Part shown: positions 29,701 through 35,700 of the stretch, in pieces
Layout of the letters: the number at the start of each line of letters is the position of its first letter
How positions within the stretch are numbered: position 1 is the first letter of the stretch
Virus record (IMG/VR): IMGVR_UViG_2713896799_000013
Length of the DNA stretch: 36,212 nt
Source: a virus
Taxonomy: Duplodnaviria; Heunggongvirae; Uroviricota; Caudoviricetes
Reading direction: 5' to 3' (one strand)
Position numbers: made by a program

Positions 29701-32700
29701 TGTGCGGAAAGATACGCGCCATTAATGACCTGAAGCAGGCCGCTGACTACAAAGAGCGCCTCTCTAAAGAACTGGTGTCAGCGGAGCAGGATATTACCAC
29801 TCTGGCAAAAAGCGCGGCATTAAACGTTTCGCGAGTGATTGAAAACTACTGACCAATGAGCTCAAGTAGTTCTCCGCAGATGAAGTGCGTGCGCCGGACA
29901 CGGATAAACCTCCGGCATGCTCTTTAACAATCTGGATATTCCTAACCACAAAGAAATCGCATCAATTTGGATTTTGTGGGCAACTTCTCTTGTTGTTCGA
30001 TGGAGACGCCTATTTTGATCTGTGTTTTTAAGATCGCAATATCTTTAAGTGATGACCAAATATGATCATCTGTTTTTTCCAGAGTTTTTAACTGAATTTT
30101 CAATTCCGAATCAGAATATTTTTCTGCATCATCAAAAAGCTGCAAATATTCTGCGGATTTTCTCATGGCATTACCTGACTTTTGTCCGAATCCATAAATC
30201 GTTTGGACGGTTGCGATCACAACAATAAAAACGCCAGAAATTTCCGGAATGAATCCGCCAATGACAGATGAACCGAGGATAATACTCACTACTGAGAGAA
30301 GTTTATCGAGACGACCAGTCGCTACAGAAAACAGTTGCTCAAGAAAATAGCCATATAAAATTCTGTCAAGAATATCATCCCGGTCCATACACCATCACCT
30401 GCTTGTGCTCTTTGCTCTGTCATATGATTTCCTTGGATCGTTGGGGATATCCAGATTATACAGATTTCCTGTCGTTGGGGAATGACGGAAACCACCTCGC
30501 CTGACGTGGTTAAAAGCAGGCACACAACACGAAAGCGCACGGCGAAGTTCGTCTCACTGCACGGTGTCGTTAAATTTAATTCGACCGTGCGCTTCCGGTT
30601 GTGGCGACCCGCGAAATGGCGCGGCGGTAAGTATGGCGGGGGTGGGAGGGACGCCTTTCCCCGTTGAGGACACCGGGTTGTCAGGTTGACCATACGCTTA
30701 AGTGACAACCCCGCTACAACGCCCTCTGTTATCAATATTCTGGTGACATTTGGCGGTATCAGTTTTACTCCGTGACTGCTCTGCCGCCCTTTTTTAAAAG
30801 TGAATTTTGTGATGCGGTGAATGCGGCTCAGCGCACGCGGAACAGTTAAAACCAAAAACAGTGTTATGGGTGGATTCTCTGTATCCGGCGTTAATTGTTA
30901 ACTGGTTAACGTCACCTGGAGGCACCAGGCACCGCATCACAAAATTCATTGTTGAGGACGCGATAATGGAAAAGTTATCATGTAATGCCAGCACGTCTGA
31001 ACTTCGTTTCGAAATTGGCGTTATCACTGGAGACAAAACATTTATTGAAGACGCCATTAAGCAGAGAAAACTCGAGCAGGACCTGTTAAATGAAGTATGC
31101 ATTCCTTCAATGCTGGCTCGTCTGGACCTGCTGCAAAAAGGATATAAACAATGAATACAACATTTGCACTCGTTCTGACAGTTTATCTTGTTTCCGGCGA
31201 ATCTCTTGAGCTGGTGACTGGCTTATACGGTTCAATGAAAGAATGCATGGCTGCAGCAGCAGAACAAAAAATTCCCGGTAACTGTTATCCGGTAGATAAA
31301 ACTACTCACACTAATAATAACGAAATACCGGCAGGACTTTAAAACAGCACCGTAATTAATATCCGGTTTCATTTTTATATGCCAGCAATGGCAGGGATTT
31401 GTTCACCCTTAAATCTATGAGGTTAAAACAAAATGAGTAAAGTCTTTATTTGCGCCGCCATTCCGGACGAACAGGCAATAAAAGAAGAGGGCGCAGTTGC
31501 TGTAGCCACTGCCATTGAAGCCGGTGATGAACGCCGCGCCCGTGCCAAATTTACCTGGCAATTCCTGGAGCAATATCCTGCTGCTCAGGACTGCGCTTAT
31601 AAATTTCTTGTCTGCGAAGATAAACCCGGCATGCCCCGCCCTGCTATCGACTCCTGGGATACCGAATATATGCAGGAAAACCGCTGGGATGAGGAATGCG
31701 CTTCCTTTGTTCCGGTCGAACCAGAATCCGATCCGATGAACGTCAATTTTGACAAGCTGTCCCCTGAAGTACAGAACGCGGTCCTGGTTAAGTTCGGTAC
31801 ATGTGAAAACATCACCGTTGATATGGCGATTGACGCTCAGGAATTACTGCAGGAAGACGTGGCTACCTTTGACGGGCATATCGTTGAAGCACTGATGAAA
31901 ACGCCTGAAATTAACGCTATGTATCCGGAACGCAAACTGTTCGCTATCGGATGGGTTAAACACAAATGTAAGCCGGGTACCAAATGGACCGAAATTCAGG
32001 CTGAATTACGTAACTGGAAAAAACGGCAGGACGCAGAGCGCAAAGAGACTGGAAAATACACGTCTGTTGTTGATCTTGCCCGCGCCAGAGTCAACCGACA
32101 GAGCACTGAAAACTCAGCAGAAAAAATCAATTCTGTCACTGCCGCCATTCGTCGCGAATACAAGCAGACATGGAAAACGCTGGATGAAGAACTGGCCTAC
32201 GCTCTGTGGCCTGGCGATATTAATACCGGAAACATTGACGGCAGCATCCATCGCTGGGCAAAAAATGAAGTTATCGACAAAGATCGCGAAGACTGGAAGC
32301 GCATTTCCGCATCAATGCGCAAACAACCCGATGCCGTTCGCTACGACCGTCAGACTATTTTTGGCCTTGTCCGTGAGCGTCCGATCGACATTCACAAAGA
32401 TCCCGTGGCACTGAATAAATACATCACTGAATACCTTGCGACAAAGGGCGTGTTTGAGGATGAAGAAGCAGATCAGAGCGTTGTTGATGTTCTCCAGTCG
32501 TCAGCATCACAAACTGATGCAGTGGAAACTGAAGTACCTGATACCCAAAAAAATGAAAGCGCGCTGGAAGATGAATCATCTGTAGAGCGTGAAGGGCCGT
32601 TCTACTTCCTCTTCAGCGATAAGGATGGAGAAAAATACGGTCGCGCAAACAAACTTTCAGGTCTGAATAAGGCGCTGGCTACAGGAGCTACTGAAATCAC

Positions 32701-35700
32701 GAAAGAAGAATATTTTGCTCGAAAAAACGGTACATGCTCAGGTTCACAACAAAATACTGGTGCATCTGACACGACCGCACAACCAGAGCCGGTAAAAGTT
32801 ACTGCTGACGAAGTGAACAAAATTATGCAGGCAGCCAATATCAGCCTGCCTGACGCCAGTCAGTTGCTCGCTGCATCACGTGGTGAATTTGTTGCAGGGA
32901 TCAGCGACCCGAATGATCCGAAATGGGTGAAGGGGATTGAAACCCGCGATTCTGTAAACCAGAACCAGCAAGAATCGGAACAGAACGACCAAAAAGCGGA
33001 ACAAAACAGCCCAAATGCGTTACAAAACGAGCCAGAAACGAAACAGCCTGAGCCAGTAGTGCAACAAGTTTGCACCGCCTGCGGTCAGACCGGTGGCGGC
33101 AACTGCCCTGATTGTGGTGCGGTGATGGGCGACGCAACATACCAGGAAACATTCGATGAAGAGAATCAGGTTGAAGCTAAGGAAAATGATCCGGAGGAAA
33201 TGGAAGGCGCTGAACATCCACACAAAGAGAATGCTGGCAGCGCTCAGGACCACGCCAGCGATAGTGAAACTGGCGAGGCGGCAGCTCCCTTAATTAAGGT
33301 GAACAGTCATCACAATATCACATCCACCAGCAGAGCGGGGATTCATCTGATGATCGACCTTGAAACCATGGGAAAAAATCCTGATGCCCCGATTATCTCA
33401 ATAGGTGCAATATTTTTCGATCCGCAAACCGGAGATATGGGACCGGAATTTAGTAAGACTATCGATCTGGAAACTGCTGGCGGAGTCATTGATCGTGACA
33501 CCATTAAATGGTGGCTTAAGCAATCACGCGAGGCGCAATCTGCCATTATGACCGATGAAATCCCGTTAGATGATGCACTACTGCAATTGCGGGAATTTAT
33601 CGACGAAAACTCCGGTGAATTTTTTGTTCAGGTCTGGGGAAATGGAGCCAACTTCGACAACACGATTTTGCGCCGTTCATACGAACGGCAGGGGATCCCC
33701 AGCCCCTGGCACTACCACAACGATCGCGATGTACGCACAATCGTTGAGCTGGGAAAAGCCATAGACTTCGATGCCAGAACTGCTATCCCATTCGAAGGTG
33801 AGCGCCATAATGCACTTGATGACGCTCGTTACCAGGCAAAATACGTTTCAGCAATCTGGCAAAAACTGATCCCGAGTCAGGCTGATTTTTAATGTTCAAC
33901 CCTGAACGCCGCTAACCGCATATAGTTAGCGGCGGTTATGAGATATAGCTATGAGCAGCTTATTTTTAACCGAAGATGAATTGCTAATATTAACGGACTG
34001 CAAATATGCAAGCCACCAGCGAAAATGGTTAATGGAAAACGGGATTCCGTTCTATACCAATCGTAGTGGCAAACCGATTGTCAGCCGGGATCTATTTACC
34101 TGCAATAAAACTTTACCACCACGCGAGGTAGAGCCGAATTTTGGTGCAATCTGATGGGAAGACGAAGGAAAAATCCTGAACACGATAAACTACCTCCAAA
34201 TGTATACCCAAATAAATATAGTTATGTATGGAAACCAACATCCAGAGAATCTGTCACACTAACCGCCATCAAGGATGGTTTAGCTGCTTTATGGGAAAAG
34301 TATGAGGAAACTGTAAATAATCGCGATCGCGCAATGACATTCGGTCGCTTGTGGGAAAAATTCCTCGCCAGCGCCTATTACAGTGACCTCAGTCCAAGAA
34401 CACAAAAAGATTATCTGCAACATCAAAAAAAGTTGCTTGCCGTATTCGGTAAGGTGCCGGCAGATTCCATAAAACCAGAACACATCCGTCGATACATGGA
34501 CAAGAGAGGGGAACAGAGTAAAACGCAAGCCAACCATGAAAAAAGCAGTATGTCCCGCGTTTACAGTTGGGGGTATGAGCGAGGGTACGTGAAGGGTAAC
34601 CCATGTGCAGGTGTAAGTAAATTCAAGGCCAAAAACCGCGAACGATATGTAACCGACAAAGAATACCAGGCAGTATTAAGCGTTGCACCTCTTCCTGTTT
34701 TTATCGCAATGGAAATTGCCTATCTGTGTGCAGCGAGGGTTTCCGATGTGTTATCGCTGAAATGGGAGCAGATTGGAAACGACGGGATCTTTATCCAGCA
34801 AGGGAAAACAGGGAAAAAACAGATAAAAGCATGGAGTCCACGATTACAGGCGGCGATCGAAAAAGCAAAACAGTTACCAACATCCGCCTATGTAATCAGC
34901 AATCAATACGGCAACCGATATATGTACAAAGGCTTTAACGAAATGTGGGTAGAAGCAAGAAATCGCGCAGGCAAAATTTCAGGTATTTTAACCGACTTCA
35001 CCTTTCATGATCTGAAGGCGAAAGGAATTTCAGACTATGAAGGAAGCAGCCGGGATAAGCAACTTTTCTCTGGTCACAAAACCGAAGGGCAAGTGCTAAT
35101 CTATGACAGGAAGGTTAAAGTTTCACCGACACTTGATGTCCCGTTACCTGATAATATTCCAAGAAAATATTCCAAGTAATTCCAAGTGTGATTTTTGTCA
35201 CTGACTTAATGATGTGTAAGTGATTGAATTTTGGCGGAGAGAGGGGGATTTGAACCCCCGGTGGAGTTGCCCCCACTCCGGTTTTCGAGACCGGTCCGTT
35301 CAGCCGCTCCGGCATCTCTCCGTTCAGATGGTTGCCATGATGCCAGGAAATTTGGCATTTTAACAGTCCCTGTCCGTGCAATTTTGTTCAAGTGACGAGT
35401 TTGCGAGCAAAACGATGATTAAGTGGCCCTGGAAAGTACAAGAATCAGCACATCAAACTGCCCTTCCCTGGCAGGAAGCACTATCGATCCCCCTTTTAAC
35501 GGGTCTGACGGAACAGGAACAAAGCAAATTAGTCACTCTTGCCGAACGTTTTTTACAGCAAAAGCGGCTTGTTCCTTTACAGGGCTTTGAACTGGATTCA
35601 TTAAGAAGCTGCCGGATAGCACTTCTATTTTGCCTACCCGTTCTGGAGTTAGGACTGGAATGGCTGGATGGTTTTCATGAAGTCTTAATTTATCCTGCGC

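What the first reader, a model, noticed from the sequence alone, without database searches (positions are those of the whole stretch)
31433..33892. RecE-like scaffold fused to a DnaQ-like DEDDh 3'-5' exonuclease, with no RecT/Bet partner
The 819-aa protein shares a middle segment with Rac RecE, but instead of RecE's 5'-3' nuclease it ends in a DEDDh domain (MIDLETMG, WGNGANFDNTIL, HNALDDARY) preceded by a CxxC...CxxC ribbon. No single-strand-annealing gene is adjacent: ydfD is upstream and xis/int downstream. Opposite polarity and no partner argue against a classical recombineering pair. It could be a nucleic-acid degrading, host-takeover or anti-defense function; K-12 carries only a truncated ydfE, so the intact form is under-studied.
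Basis: partly seen in the sequence, partly recalled or inferred. Interest (0 to 1): 0.5.

Follow-up and report, generated by a model that had tools for sequence, protein, structure and literature searches.

The report
RecE-type scaffold carrying a DEDDh exonuclease
This prophage gene is the intact form of E. coli YdfE, in which the non-catalytic body of the RecE recombination nuclease carries a 3'-5' DEDDh exonuclease and has no annealing-protein partner; it is real and very common but already catalogued, and it most likely processes DNA ends in phages that rely on the host RecBCD/Chi recombination pathway.

Summary
ORF 31433-33892 (+) encodes 819 aa. Its modules are YdfE_N/YdfE_C, then a segment 64% identical to Rac RecE that contains the CxxC..CxxC ribbon, then a Pfam Rv2179c-like DEDDh domain (E=9e-67) with D642, E644, D742, H792 and D797 invariant. 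No annealing protein, SSB or RecBCD inhibitor is encoded in the window.

Comparative work adds three points:
- recT follows the PD-(D/E)XK forms (4 of 4) and none of about 29 DEDDh forms.
- The prophage is Chi-rich: 13 sites against 1.3 expected, 11 on one strand.

This matches the 'Tritos-type, nuclease-only' Rec module of Zheng et al. 2025; Tritos carries an 88.8%-identical copy. The gene is present in 65% of complete E. coli genomes and in viable phages.

Best reading (about 0.45): a DNA-end 3'-5' exonuclease acting in annealase-independent phage recombination that depends on host RecBCD/RecA. Host-takeover, anti-defence and HREX-type defence readings get little support, and DexA's 5hmC-recognition residues are not conserved. 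The protein is catalogued but has not been characterised experimentally.

The parts
31433..33892 (+). Full-length YdfE-type gene (819 aa plus stop): scaffold fused to a DEDDh exonuclease
   Evidence: ORF list; PHROG 2082 matches end to end; precomputed Pfam YdfE_N + YdfE_C + Rv2179c-like
31433..32116 (+). N-terminal scaffold module, aa 1-228 (YdfE_N type): an alpha/beta subdomain (aa 1-100) and a helical subdomain (aa 105-228)
32168..32728 (+). Middle scaffold modules: helical domain aa 246-340, disordered linker aa 345-385, small beta-hairpin/helix domain aa 386-432. Distantly homologous to RecE aa ~200-430
   Evidence: AF2; phmmer module map; weak BLASTP match to RecE 311-382
32864..33288 (+). 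Segment 'R', aa 478-619: an island of DNA homology with Rac recE (84.9% nt, 64% aa over aa 439-620), containing the zinc ribbon and an acidic linker. It acts as the mosaic crossover zone
   Evidence: (H35). The L016 hybrid is 95.6% identical to the window from nt 32879 onward only
33071..33115 (+). CxxC-x7-CxxC zinc-ribbon motif (C547, C550, C558, C561), shared with RecE
   Evidence: Identical motif in the alignment with Rac-SA53 RecE
33344..33859 (+). DEDDh (DnaQ-like, Rv2179c/DexA-type) 3'-5' exonuclease domain, aa 638-809. Catalytic residues D642, E644, D742, H792, D797
   Evidence: Pfam PF16473, E=9.3e-67; PDB 8kel/8ken exodeoxyribonuclease, E=3.6e-6; invariant columns
33324..33331 (-). 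Chi site inside the gene (codons 631-633), 36 bp past the end of the recE homology, at the scaffold/nuclease junction
28604..29023 (+). cI/DicA-like repressor at the head of the early-left region
   Evidence: HTH_3 family gene in identical loci; annotated CI repressor in Tritos
30738..30789 (+). DicF sRNA
   Evidence: Rfam RF00039, 77 bits against a gathering score of 48
30966..31342 (+). dicB (30966-31154) and ydfD (31151-31342), immediately upstream in the same operon
   Evidence: PF05358 DicB and PF07358 DUF1482 in identical loci; RefSeq annotation
33951..35179 (+). DUF4224 xis-like gene (33951-34154) and tyrosine integrase (34154-35179), directly downstream where recT sits in Rac
   Evidence: Rac order is recE-recT...xis-int
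35235..35321 (-). tRNA-Ser attachment site; host mtfA follows
   Evidence: Rfam tRNA; RefSeq annotation

Best explanation
The gene is the only recombination-module gene of a lambdoid prophage of the 'Tritos' type. It encodes a metal-dependent 3'-5' exonuclease of the DEDDh class, most likely acting on DNA, mounted on the same multi-domain scaffold that carries the 5'-3' nuclease in RecE. It is transcribed as the distal gene of the repressor-controlled early-left operon (cI | ydfABC-dicF-dicB-ydfD-exo-xis-int), so it is made during lytic growth or induction. The scaffold probably brings its cargo to DNA ends or recombination intermediates, because evolution has fitted it with three different DNA-end effectors. 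The phage has no annealase, SSB or RecBCD inhibitor and is Chi-rich, so recombination needed for concatemer formation would be carried out by host RecBCD/RecA. The phage exonuclease would trim 3' tails or flaps, for example to blunt ends for RecBCD entry or to edit intermediates.

Shown: the architecture, an intact catalytic site, absence of a partner, the link between recT and nuclease type, modular scaffold use, and Chi enrichment.

Inferred: DNA as the substrate, 3'-5' polarity, scaffold targeting, and cooperation with RecBCD.
For: - The domain is a bona fide DEDDh nuclease with all five catalytic residues. Its closest solved relative is an exodeoxyribonuclease, 8kel/8ken, identified as T4 DexA in PMC12153337. 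[quoted passage not shown]
- The gene occupies recE's slot in the operon.
- Standalone homologues (52-57% identical) lie in tight Sak4-SSB-DEDDh or Erf-ORF-DEDDh triplets. Pfam finds SSB, RdgC, Rad52, ERF and AAA_24 among their upstream neighbours.
- recT co-occurs only with the PD-(D/E)XK versions.
- The window has 13 Chi sites against 1.29 expected, with 11 in one orientation in the right arm, and no Gam or Abc2. This matches the Tritos class (nuclease +, SAP -, SSB -, anti-RecBCD -, Chi-rich) in Zheng et al. 2025. Tritos carries an 88.8%-identical gene.
- The gene is intact in viable phages (Tritos, HannyBb, mEp460, Evi) and in 3,511 of 5,426 complete E. coli genomes, which argues for selection.
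Against: - No biochemical or genetic data exist for this protein.
- The Pfam family is named after an exoribonuclease, so RNA remains a possible substrate.
- The scaffold has no structural relative that would reveal what it binds.
- The DEDDh module, xis and int move together as one DNA block, so absence of recT could partly reflect mosaic linkage rather than function.
- Only about 10 of 38 standalone homologues have a recognisable recombination protein upstream. In 15 of 38 the neighbour is DUF2303/YfdQ, of unknown function.
- The seed-based SSAP search has limited sensitivity.
Confidence: 0.45

Rival explanations
1. Prophage-encoded defence or superinfection exclusion of the HREX type: like the E. 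coli DexA homologue EcD, the exonuclease degrades modified (5hmC) DNA of incoming T-even phages while sparing host DNA.
For: Kang et al. 2025 (PMC12153337) report that a standalone E. coli DexA homologue degrades T4 DNA and protects cells. The domain here belongs to the same Pfam family and shares the catalytic residues. The gene is extremely common in E. coli prophages.
Against: DexA residues reported as necessary for 5hmC-DNA cleavage are not conserved: W152 aligns with H762 and D169 with A776. The tetramer residue D90, which is lost in EcD, is retained as D714 (the alignment is only 25% identical, so this is tentative). The gene is the distal member of a repressor-controlled early operon, and in K-12 no transcript reaching ydfDE was detected. 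No promoter signal above chance was found upstream. The protein is fused to a RecE scaffold and is kept in viable phages at the recombination-gene position.
Confidence: 0.12
2. Anti-defence or host-takeover nuclease: it destroys host or defence-system nucleic acids, such as signalling oligonucleotides, retron msDNA or host DNA, early in infection.
For: It is expressed early. It sits beside other host-manipulating genes (dicF, dicB, ydfD). T4 DexA contributes to host-DNA scavenging. The scaffold's binding partner is unknown.
Against: No similarity to any known anti-defence family was seen in the Pfam, PHROGs or NCBIfam hits. From general knowledge, temperate lambdoid phages do not degrade the host chromosome. 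Every informative association found here is with recombination proteins. The PADLOC library was not searched.
Confidence: 0.12
3. It is a 3'-5' exoribonuclease that trims or degrades RNA, for example phage or host transcripts or the polycistronic dicBF RNA.
For: The Pfam family is named after the exoribonuclease Rv2179c, and NCBI names many copies '3'-5' exoribonuclease'. The operon RNA is heavily processed.
Against: The only solved relative found by sequence is an exodeoxyribonuclease. The genomic associations are with DNA-recombination proteins and DNA nucleases. The protein replaces a DNA nuclease on a DNA-recombination scaffold.
Confidence: 0.08
4. It still works as half of an exonuclease/annealase pair, with the annealase supplied in trans by another resident prophage (for example Rac RecT), by an unrecognised gene, or by the scaffold itself.
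For: E. coli genomes carry a median of 2 and up to 8 matching places, and often also Rac-like recET. The RecE-shared segment R might retain a partner-binding site. Some standalone homologues do sit next to annealases.
Against: Free-living phages such as Tritos and HannyBb carry no SSAP in the regions examined, and Zheng et al. score the Tritos class as SAP-negative. From established work on lambda Exo/Beta, annealase loading involves the 3'-tailed product of a 5'-3' nuclease, whereas a 3'-5' exonuclease leaves 5' tails. The scaffold model shows no Rad52, RecT or Erf fold.
Confidence: 0.08
5. It is a decaying or selfish passenger with no current function, produced by illegitimate or mosaic recombination.
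For: A mosaic origin is evident. Truncated and frameshifted copies exist: K-12 ydfE cut by IS2, and Shigella locus L071 in fragments.
Against: The full-length ORF is intact in 65% of complete E. coli genomes and in several viable phages. The catalytic residues are invariant. Both fusion types are conserved across many enterobacterial genera at only 55-65% identity, which implies long-term purifying selection.
Confidence: 0.05

Closest known systems
RecE (exodeoxyribonuclease VIII) of the Rac prophage, partner of RecT
   Same: Same operon slot, between the kil/dicB-type genes and xis-int. A homologous middle region. A segment (aa 439-620) that is 64% identical and includes the zinc ribbon and acidic linker. 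Large size, with a nuclease at the C-terminus.
   Different: The C-terminal nuclease is DEDDh (predicted 3'-5') rather than PD-(D/E)XK (5'-3'). There is no RecT. The N-terminal 230 aa are YdfE_N rather than PF06630. The NCBIfam equivalog score is far below its cutoff.
Tritos-type 'nuclease-only' Rec module of lambdoid phages (Zheng, Casjens, Davidson, Amundsen & Smith, Genome Res 2025, PMC12315714)
   Same: Tritos carries an 88.8%-identical gene in the same operon. The module has a nuclease but no SAP, SSB or anti-RecBCD. The genome is Chi-rich with a strand bias.
   Different: Nothing material; the window's prophage is a member of this class. The text of the paper that could be read does not describe the RecE-scaffold fusion or its modularity, and it reports no function.
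T4 DexA and the E. coli standalone homologue EcD (HREX system; PDB 8kel/8ken)
   Same: Same Pfam family and the same DEDDh catalytic residues. DexA is a 3'-5' DNA exonuclease with a role in recombination-dependent intron homing.
   Different: Only about 25-28% identical. DexA and EcD are standalone proteins of about 200 aa, with no scaffold. The 5hmC-recognition residues W152 and D169 are replaced by H762 and A776.
Standalone DEDDh exonucleases in enterobacterial prophage early-left operons (e.g. Yersinia phage YeP1; loci L060, L061, L067, L069)
   Same: 52-57% identical to the domain. Same position just upstream of xis/int. Some are embedded in Sak4-SSB-DEDDh or Erf-ORF-DEDDh modules.
   Different: They have no scaffold, and some have an adjacent annealase. 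Many instead follow the yfdQ (DUF2303) cluster, whose function is unknown.
Scaffold-annealase fusions (YdfE_N + YdfE_C + Rad52-like domain; PHROG 2489; possibly the 'RecE-2' proteins of Zheng et al.)
   Same: Same N-terminal and middle scaffold, and the same operon position, followed by xis/int.
   Different: The C-terminal cargo is a Rad52-fold annealase rather than a nuclease. These proteins are followed by a Sipho_Gp157 gene.

Membership tests
DEDDh / DnaQ-like exonucleases, Rv2179c-like subfamily (PF16473) | Profile match above the curated threshold | tested here: met
   224.6 bits against a cutoff of 27, E=9.3e-67, covering profile positions 2-177 of 177
DEDDh / DnaQ-like exonucleases, Rv2179c-like subfamily (PF16473) | Exo I (DxE), Exo II (D) and Exo III (Hx4D) acidic and histidine residues | tested here: met
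   D642, E644, D742, H792 and D797 are invariant in 11 sequences including T4 DexA
DEDDh / DnaQ-like exonucleases, Rv2179c-like subfamily (PF16473) | 3'-5' exonuclease activity, and whether the substrate is DNA or RNA | not testable with these tools
   Needs an enzyme assay
RecE / exodeoxyribonuclease VIII (NCBIfam NF007259 equivalog) | Whole-protein score above the equivalog cutoff | tested here: not met
   260.5 bits against a cutoff of 1269; only aa 217-622 align
RecE / exodeoxyribonuclease VIII (NCBIfam NF007259 equivalog) | C-terminal PD-(D/E)XK (DUF3799-type) 5'-3' nuclease domain | tested here: not met
   No PF12684 hit, whereas Rac-SA53 RecE has one. Similarity to RecE ends at aa 620
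RecE / exodeoxyribonuclease VIII (NCBIfam NF007259 equivalog) | Adjacent recT | tested here: not met
   xis and int follow directly, and there is no RecT-family gene anywhere in the window
RecE / exodeoxyribonuclease VIII (NCBIfam NF007259 equivalog) | PF06630 Exonuc_VIII N-terminal domain | tested here: not met
   Not found by Pfam. Replaced by YdfE_N. Sister DEDDh fusions in other genera do have it
YdfE family (Pfam PF27430 YdfE_N, PF27432 YdfE_C) | Matches to both family profiles | tested here: met
   Precomputed hits without a weak or faint mark on this exact protein. The two models are absent from the local Pfam copy, so the scan could not be repeated here
Tritos-type nuclease-only Rec module (Zheng et al. 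2025) | Nuclease present; SAP, SSB and anti-RecBCD absent from the early-left operon | tested here: met
   The class is defined in Table 1 of PMC12315714
Tritos-type nuclease-only Rec module (Zheng et al. 2025) | Abundant, strand-biased Chi sites | tested here: met
   13 Chi sites against 1.29 expected, with 0 of 100 shuffles reaching 13. Eleven are on the '-' strand between 13.9 and 34.0 kb
HREX / EcD-type anti-phage DexA homologues (Kang et al. 2025) | Conservation of the DexA W152 and D169 equivalents needed for 5hmC-DNA cleavage | tested here: not met
   H762 and A776 at the aligned positions. The alignment has low identity, so this is tentative
HREX / EcD-type anti-phage DexA homologues (Kang et al. 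2025) | Loss of the tetramer-forming D90 equivalent | tested here: not met
   D714 is retained
HREX / EcD-type anti-phage DexA homologues (Kang et al. 2025) | Protection against T4 when expressed | not testable with these tools
   Needs a plaque assay

The most novel reading that the evidence does not exclude
The RecE/YdfE scaffold is a general delivery platform that brings interchangeable DNA-end effectors (a 5'-3' PD-(D/E)XK nuclease, a 3'-5' DEDDh nuclease, or a Rad52-type annealase) to one common target at DNA ends or on a host factor such as RecBCD, SSB or the replisome. On this reading the DEDDh version defines a phage recombination strategy that needs no annealase: a phage 3'-5' exonuclease conditions DNA ends for host RecBCD-Chi-RecA recombination. 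This would also give RecE's long-unexplained N-terminal 560 residues a function.
Probability: 0.25. Interest if true: 0.7.

Novelty: new variant of a known kind. Interest (0 to 1): 0.42.

Why it matters
RecE/RecT is a mainstay of recombineering, yet about two thirds of RecE has had no assigned function. This work shows that the same scaffold carries three different recombination effectors, and that recT tracks the nuclease type rather than the scaffold. That makes the scaffold's role testable. The protein is among the commonest prophage proteins in E. coli (65% of complete genomes) and has no experimental characterisation. If it cooperates with RecBCD/Chi, it would explain how a large class of lambdoid phages without Red-like systems generate concatemers, and it could provide a 3'-5' counterpart for in vivo cloning tools. 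The work also indicates that the PHROG 2489 and 7838 'exonuclease' labels sit on what are structurally Rad52-type annealase fusions.

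Tried and rejected
- The first homologous-protein search returned only E. coli copies more than 90% identical in its top 120 hits, so it said nothing about diversity. It was replaced by the 50%-identity representative search.
- Promoter and terminator scans around the gene gave counts no higher than in shuffled sequence, so independent expression could not be assessed.
- Annotated neighbourhoods of standalone DEDDh genes in YeP1, Enc34 and YuA were mostly 'hypothetical', and PHROGs added little. 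The exception was a Gp2.5-like SSB/annealase next to the CWW26 homologue.
- Four phages that matched only the 3' half of the gene (689R5, 640R1 and two others) were suspected of being RecE-N hybrids. The two examined (689R5, 640R1) lie in the same dicB-ydfD operon and were not followed further; their N-terminal module was not typed.
- The supplementary tables of Zheng et al., which should list how the Tritos nuclease and the 'RecE-2' proteins were typed, are not held.
- The GenBank sequence of EcD (HAK9828821.1) could not be retrieved, so EcD was compared only through DexA numbering.
- P22 and HK620 regions were first fetched at the wrong coordinates.

Full report
**Observation.** Pfam places a Rv2179c-like DEDDh 3'-5' exonuclease domain at aa 638-809, with E=9.3e-67 and 224.6 bits against a cutoff of 27. 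The only solved relatives found by sequence are two 227-aa exodeoxyribonuclease chains, 8kel and 8ken, which PMC12153337 identifies as T4 DexA. I aligned the domain with T4 DexA and nine phage or prophage homologues. The DEDDh residues D642, E644, D742, H792 and D797 are invariant.

**Similarity to RecE.** The similarity is real but limited.
- BLASTP against the 1048-aa RecE of Rac-SA53 gives 64% identity over aa 439-620, and only weak similarity at aa 279-353.
- At the DNA level the shared island is window 32864-33288, at 84.9% identity.
- The shared segment contains the CxxC-x7-CxxC ribbon (C547, C550, C558, C561) and an acidic linker. The ribbon is therefore part of the RecE-shared module.
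- Similarity stops at aa 619-620, just before either nuclease domain begins.
- The NCBIfam ExoVIII equivalog scores 260 bits against a cutoff of 1269. No PD-(D/E)XK domain is present, whereas Rac RecE has PF06630 and DUF3799.
- Precomputed Pfam annotation on this exact protein names the N-terminal modules YdfE_N (PF27430) and YdfE_C (PF27432). This is therefore the intact form of K-12 YdfE.
- An IS2-truncated copy that matches only nt 1-767 is seen among E. coli genomes (H102).

**Context.** The window is a lambdoid prophage integrated at tRNA-Ser next to mtfA. The gene is the distal cargo of a dicBF-type early-left operon:
- cI-like repressor, 28604-29023
- ydfA/B/C-like genes
- DicF sRNA, 30738-30789 (Rfam, 77 bits)
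- dicB, 30966-31154
- ydfD, 31151-31342
- the exonuclease
- a DUF4224 xis-like gene, 33951-34154
- int, 34154-35179

The same order occurs in the viable phages Tritos and HannyBb, and in the partial phage records 689R5 and 640R1. In Rac the equivalent order is kilR-ydaE-racC-recE-recT-...-xis-int.

No annealing protein, SSB, Gam or Abc2 was found anywhere in the window. I checked with Pfam on the early-right genes, PHROGs on the remaining ORFs, and phmmer with RecT (three seeds), Bet, Erf, Sak4, Gp2.5, SSB, Gam and Abc2 seeds. The window does encode a RusA-type resolvase.

**Prevalence.** 3,511 of 5,426 complete E. coli genomes hold a copy covering at least 80% of the gene, with up to 8 places per genome. 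The protein search found 7,898 homologous clusters. The DEDDh domain alone matches 1,217 of 50,697 phage records.

**The scaffold is modular.** A search with aa 1-630 against 1.84 billion 50%-identity representatives found only 244 relatives. I mapped modules with phmmer. There are two alternative N-terminal modules, YdfE_N and RecE's PF06630 domain. These are followed by a homologous middle region and, in many members, the ribbon segment. The C-terminal cargo is either DEDDh or RecE's PD-(D/E)XK. All four combinations of N-terminus and nuclease occur.

A third group of about 14 representatives, 680-790 aa long, carries a conserved 265-aa C-terminal domain with no Pfam hit above threshold.
- PHROGs labels these proteins 'exonuclease' (phrog_2489 and phrog_7838).
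- Rad52_Rad22 is the top Pfam family, below threshold, for 10 of 14 members.
- These fusions are followed by an overlapping Sipho_Gp157 gene and then xis/int.

The same scaffold has therefore been combined with a 5'-3' nuclease, a 3'-5' nuclease and an annealase. This ties the scaffold to homologous recombination or DNA-end handling.

The scaffold itself (AF2 of aa 1-440, pLDDT 85.6) has folded modules at aa 1-100, 105-228, 246-340 and 386-432, separated by disordered linkers. It has no convincing structural relative in the PDB or among viral models. A 2023 review states that RecE's N-terminal part has unknown function but enhances linear-linear recombination (PMC11611040).

**The partner tracks the nuclease, not the scaffold.** All four PD-(D/E)XK-ended proteins examined are followed by recT:
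- Rac RecE
- P0130, with a YdfE_N/YdfE_C scaffold; the neighbour is 39% identical to RecT, E=1e-61
- P0196; the neighbour has a PF03837 RecT hit
- P0234; the neighbour matches RecT at E=4e-68

None of the DEDDh-ended fusions is followed by recT. The cases are:
- the window
- Tritos, HannyBb, 689R5 and 640R1
- P0131, which has a RecE N-terminus and sits in a Rac-like kilR-ydaE operon
- P0140, on two contigs
- P0248
- 20 long fusions from a one-genome-per-species scan, covering Escherichia albertii and E. ruysiae, Enterobacter, Kluyvera, Citrobacter, Atlantibacter, Kosakonia, Phytobacter and Dryocola, plus one contig (L024) binned in a Veillonella parvula MAG that is 96% identical to the Escherichia copies and probably mis-binned

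In nearly all of these an integrase follows within 1 kb.

The P0131 hybrid is 95.6% identical to the window from nt 32879 (aa 483) through xis-int, and unrelated upstream. The ribbon segment is therefore a recombination joint, and the DEDDh module travels with xis-int. It also means that part of the pattern could be due to linkage.

**Evidence that this domain class works in recombination modules.** About 38 prophages in the species scan carry a standalone DEDDh gene of about 190 aa, 52-57% identical to the domain.
- Four have tight triplets: Sak4-SSB-DEDDh in L060, and Erf-ORF-DEDDh in L061, L067 and L069.
- A Pfam batch scan of 139 upstream ORFs found SSB (4), RdgC (3), AAA_24/Sak4 (2), Rad52 (2) and ERF (2).
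- The same scan found DUF2303/YfdQ in 15 loci. Zheng et al. consider the yfdQ cluster unlikely to be a recombination function.
- T4 DexA is described as acting in host-DNA scavenging and in intron-homing recombination.

**Link to published work and to Chi.** Zheng, Casjens, Davidson, Amundsen and Smith (Genome Res 2025, PMC12315714) typed the Rec modules of 314 enterobacterial lambdoid phages.
- They define a class with Tritos as prototype: nuclease present; SAP, SSB and anti-RecBCD absent; Chi-rich, with 7-21 top-strand sites.
- They mention 'RecE-2' proteins that lack a nuclease domain and have unknown roles. These may be the annealase fusions identified here.

Tritos carries an 88.8%-identical copy of this gene. 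I tested the Chi prediction on the window. It has 13 Chi sites where 1.29 are expected (0 of 100 shuffles reach 13). Eleven are on the '-' strand, and all of those lie between 13.9 and 34.0 kb. By my reading of gene order, that corresponds to the right arm of the phage map, in the orientation that would be active for RecBCD entering at the right cos end. One Chi site (33324-33331, codons 631-633) lies 36 bp beyond the end of the recE homology, at the scaffold/nuclease junction.

**Most likely mechanism (confidence about 0.45).** This is a lytic-phase DNA 3'-5' exonuclease, held by a RecE-type scaffold at DNA ends or recombination intermediates. It acts in a phage that leaves strand exchange to host RecBCD/RecA. 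Plausible tasks are trimming 3' tails or flaps, and blunting ends so that RecBCD can load.

Shown here:
- the architecture and an intact active site
- the absence of a partner
- the link between recT and nuclease type
- the three cargo types on one scaffold
- Chi enrichment

Inferred:
- DNA as the substrate, and 3'-5' polarity
- what the scaffold binds
- cooperation with RecBCD

Points against: 3'-5' exonucleases usually inhibit recombination, as Zheng et al. note. No experiment exists. Linkage with xis-int could explain part of the pattern.

**Rival explanations.**
- HREX-type defence (Kang et al. 2025). This is weakened because the DexA residues W152 and D169 align with H762 and A776, and D90 is retained. 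The gene also lies in a repressed early operon, and in K-12 no transcript reaching ydfDE was detected.
- Anti-defence or host takeover. No specific support was found.
- RNA as the substrate. This remains possible because of the Pfam namesake.
- An annealase supplied in trans. This cannot be excluded for lysogens with several prophages, but it does not fit the free-living phages.
- A functionless relic. This is unlikely given intact copies across genera and invariant catalytic residues.

**Novelty and verdict.** The family is already catalogued in Pfam (YdfE_N, YdfE_C), in PHROG 2082 and under NCBI product names, and its module type was described in 2025. It is not a new discovery as such. It is a domain-swap variant of RecE with no experimental function. 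Three findings here appear to go beyond the literature I could read:
- the three-cargo modularity of the scaffold, including the Rad52-type annealase fusions that PHROGs labels 'exonuclease'
- the strict link between recT and nuclease type
- the DNA-level crossover zone in the ribbon segment, with a Chi site at its edge

Interest is moderate, at 0.42.

Noticed in passing
window 13947-34020 (13 sites; listed): Chi (GCTGGTGG) is about ten-fold over-represented: 13 sites against 1.29 expected. Eleven of the 13 are on the '-' strand, all between 13.9 and 34.0 kb, and there are none in the head-gene region 1-13.9 kb. This fits the Chi-rich, Rec-module-poor lambdoid class of Zheng et al. 2025.
   Followed up: partly
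window 33324-33331 (-): One Chi site lies inside the exonuclease gene (codons 631-633), 36 bp past the end of DNA homology with Rac recE. That is exactly at the joint between the shared ribbon segment and the DEDDh module. Whether it is conserved or promotes the module exchange was not tested.
   Followed up: no
[not shown]
   Followed up: yes
L060:8359-10229; L061:8700-10543; L067:1705-3437; L069:8736-10540: Standalone DEDDh exonucleases sit in tightly packed triplets: Sak4-SSB-DEDDh, or Erf, then an ORF of about 170 aa, then DEDDh. In L060 the DEDDh gene takes the position that Abc2 holds in HK620.
   Followed up: partly
window 29942-30388 (-): A 148-aa gene on the opposite strand (phrog_6315, unknown function) sits inside the dicBF operon between the ydfC-like gene and dicF. 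It is conserved at this position in related prophages and looks like a moron.
   Followed up: no
window 11000-12000 and 19000-20000: Two low-GC islands (0.38 and 0.365, against about 0.5 for the prophage). The second holds a 273-aa ORF (19066-19887, '-' strand) that matches only PHROG 13291, of unknown function.
   Followed up: no
window 22223-22717 (-), 20784-21833 (-), 16089-16511 (-): Accessory genes in the nin/late region: a Fic/DOC-family protein, a DUF968 protein with a weak HNH-nuclease match, and a TerB-like protein that PHROGs calls 'tellurite resistance'.
   Followed up: no
L034, L038, L039, L044, L048, L051, L053, L056, L078, L082, L083 and others (upstream of the standalone DEDDh genes): In 15 of about 38 prophages the standalone DEDDh gene lies downstream of a DUF2303 (YfdQ-like) gene, in a cluster like yfdQ-yfdR of CPS-53. 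This recurring association has no known function.
   Followed up: no
L005:3507-4204: In one genome carrying the identical 819-aa protein, an IS1 element (InsA/InsB) has inserted into the ydfB-ydfC region of the same operon. Together with the IS2-truncated K-12 ydfE, this shows repeated IS disruption of this operon.
   Followed up: no
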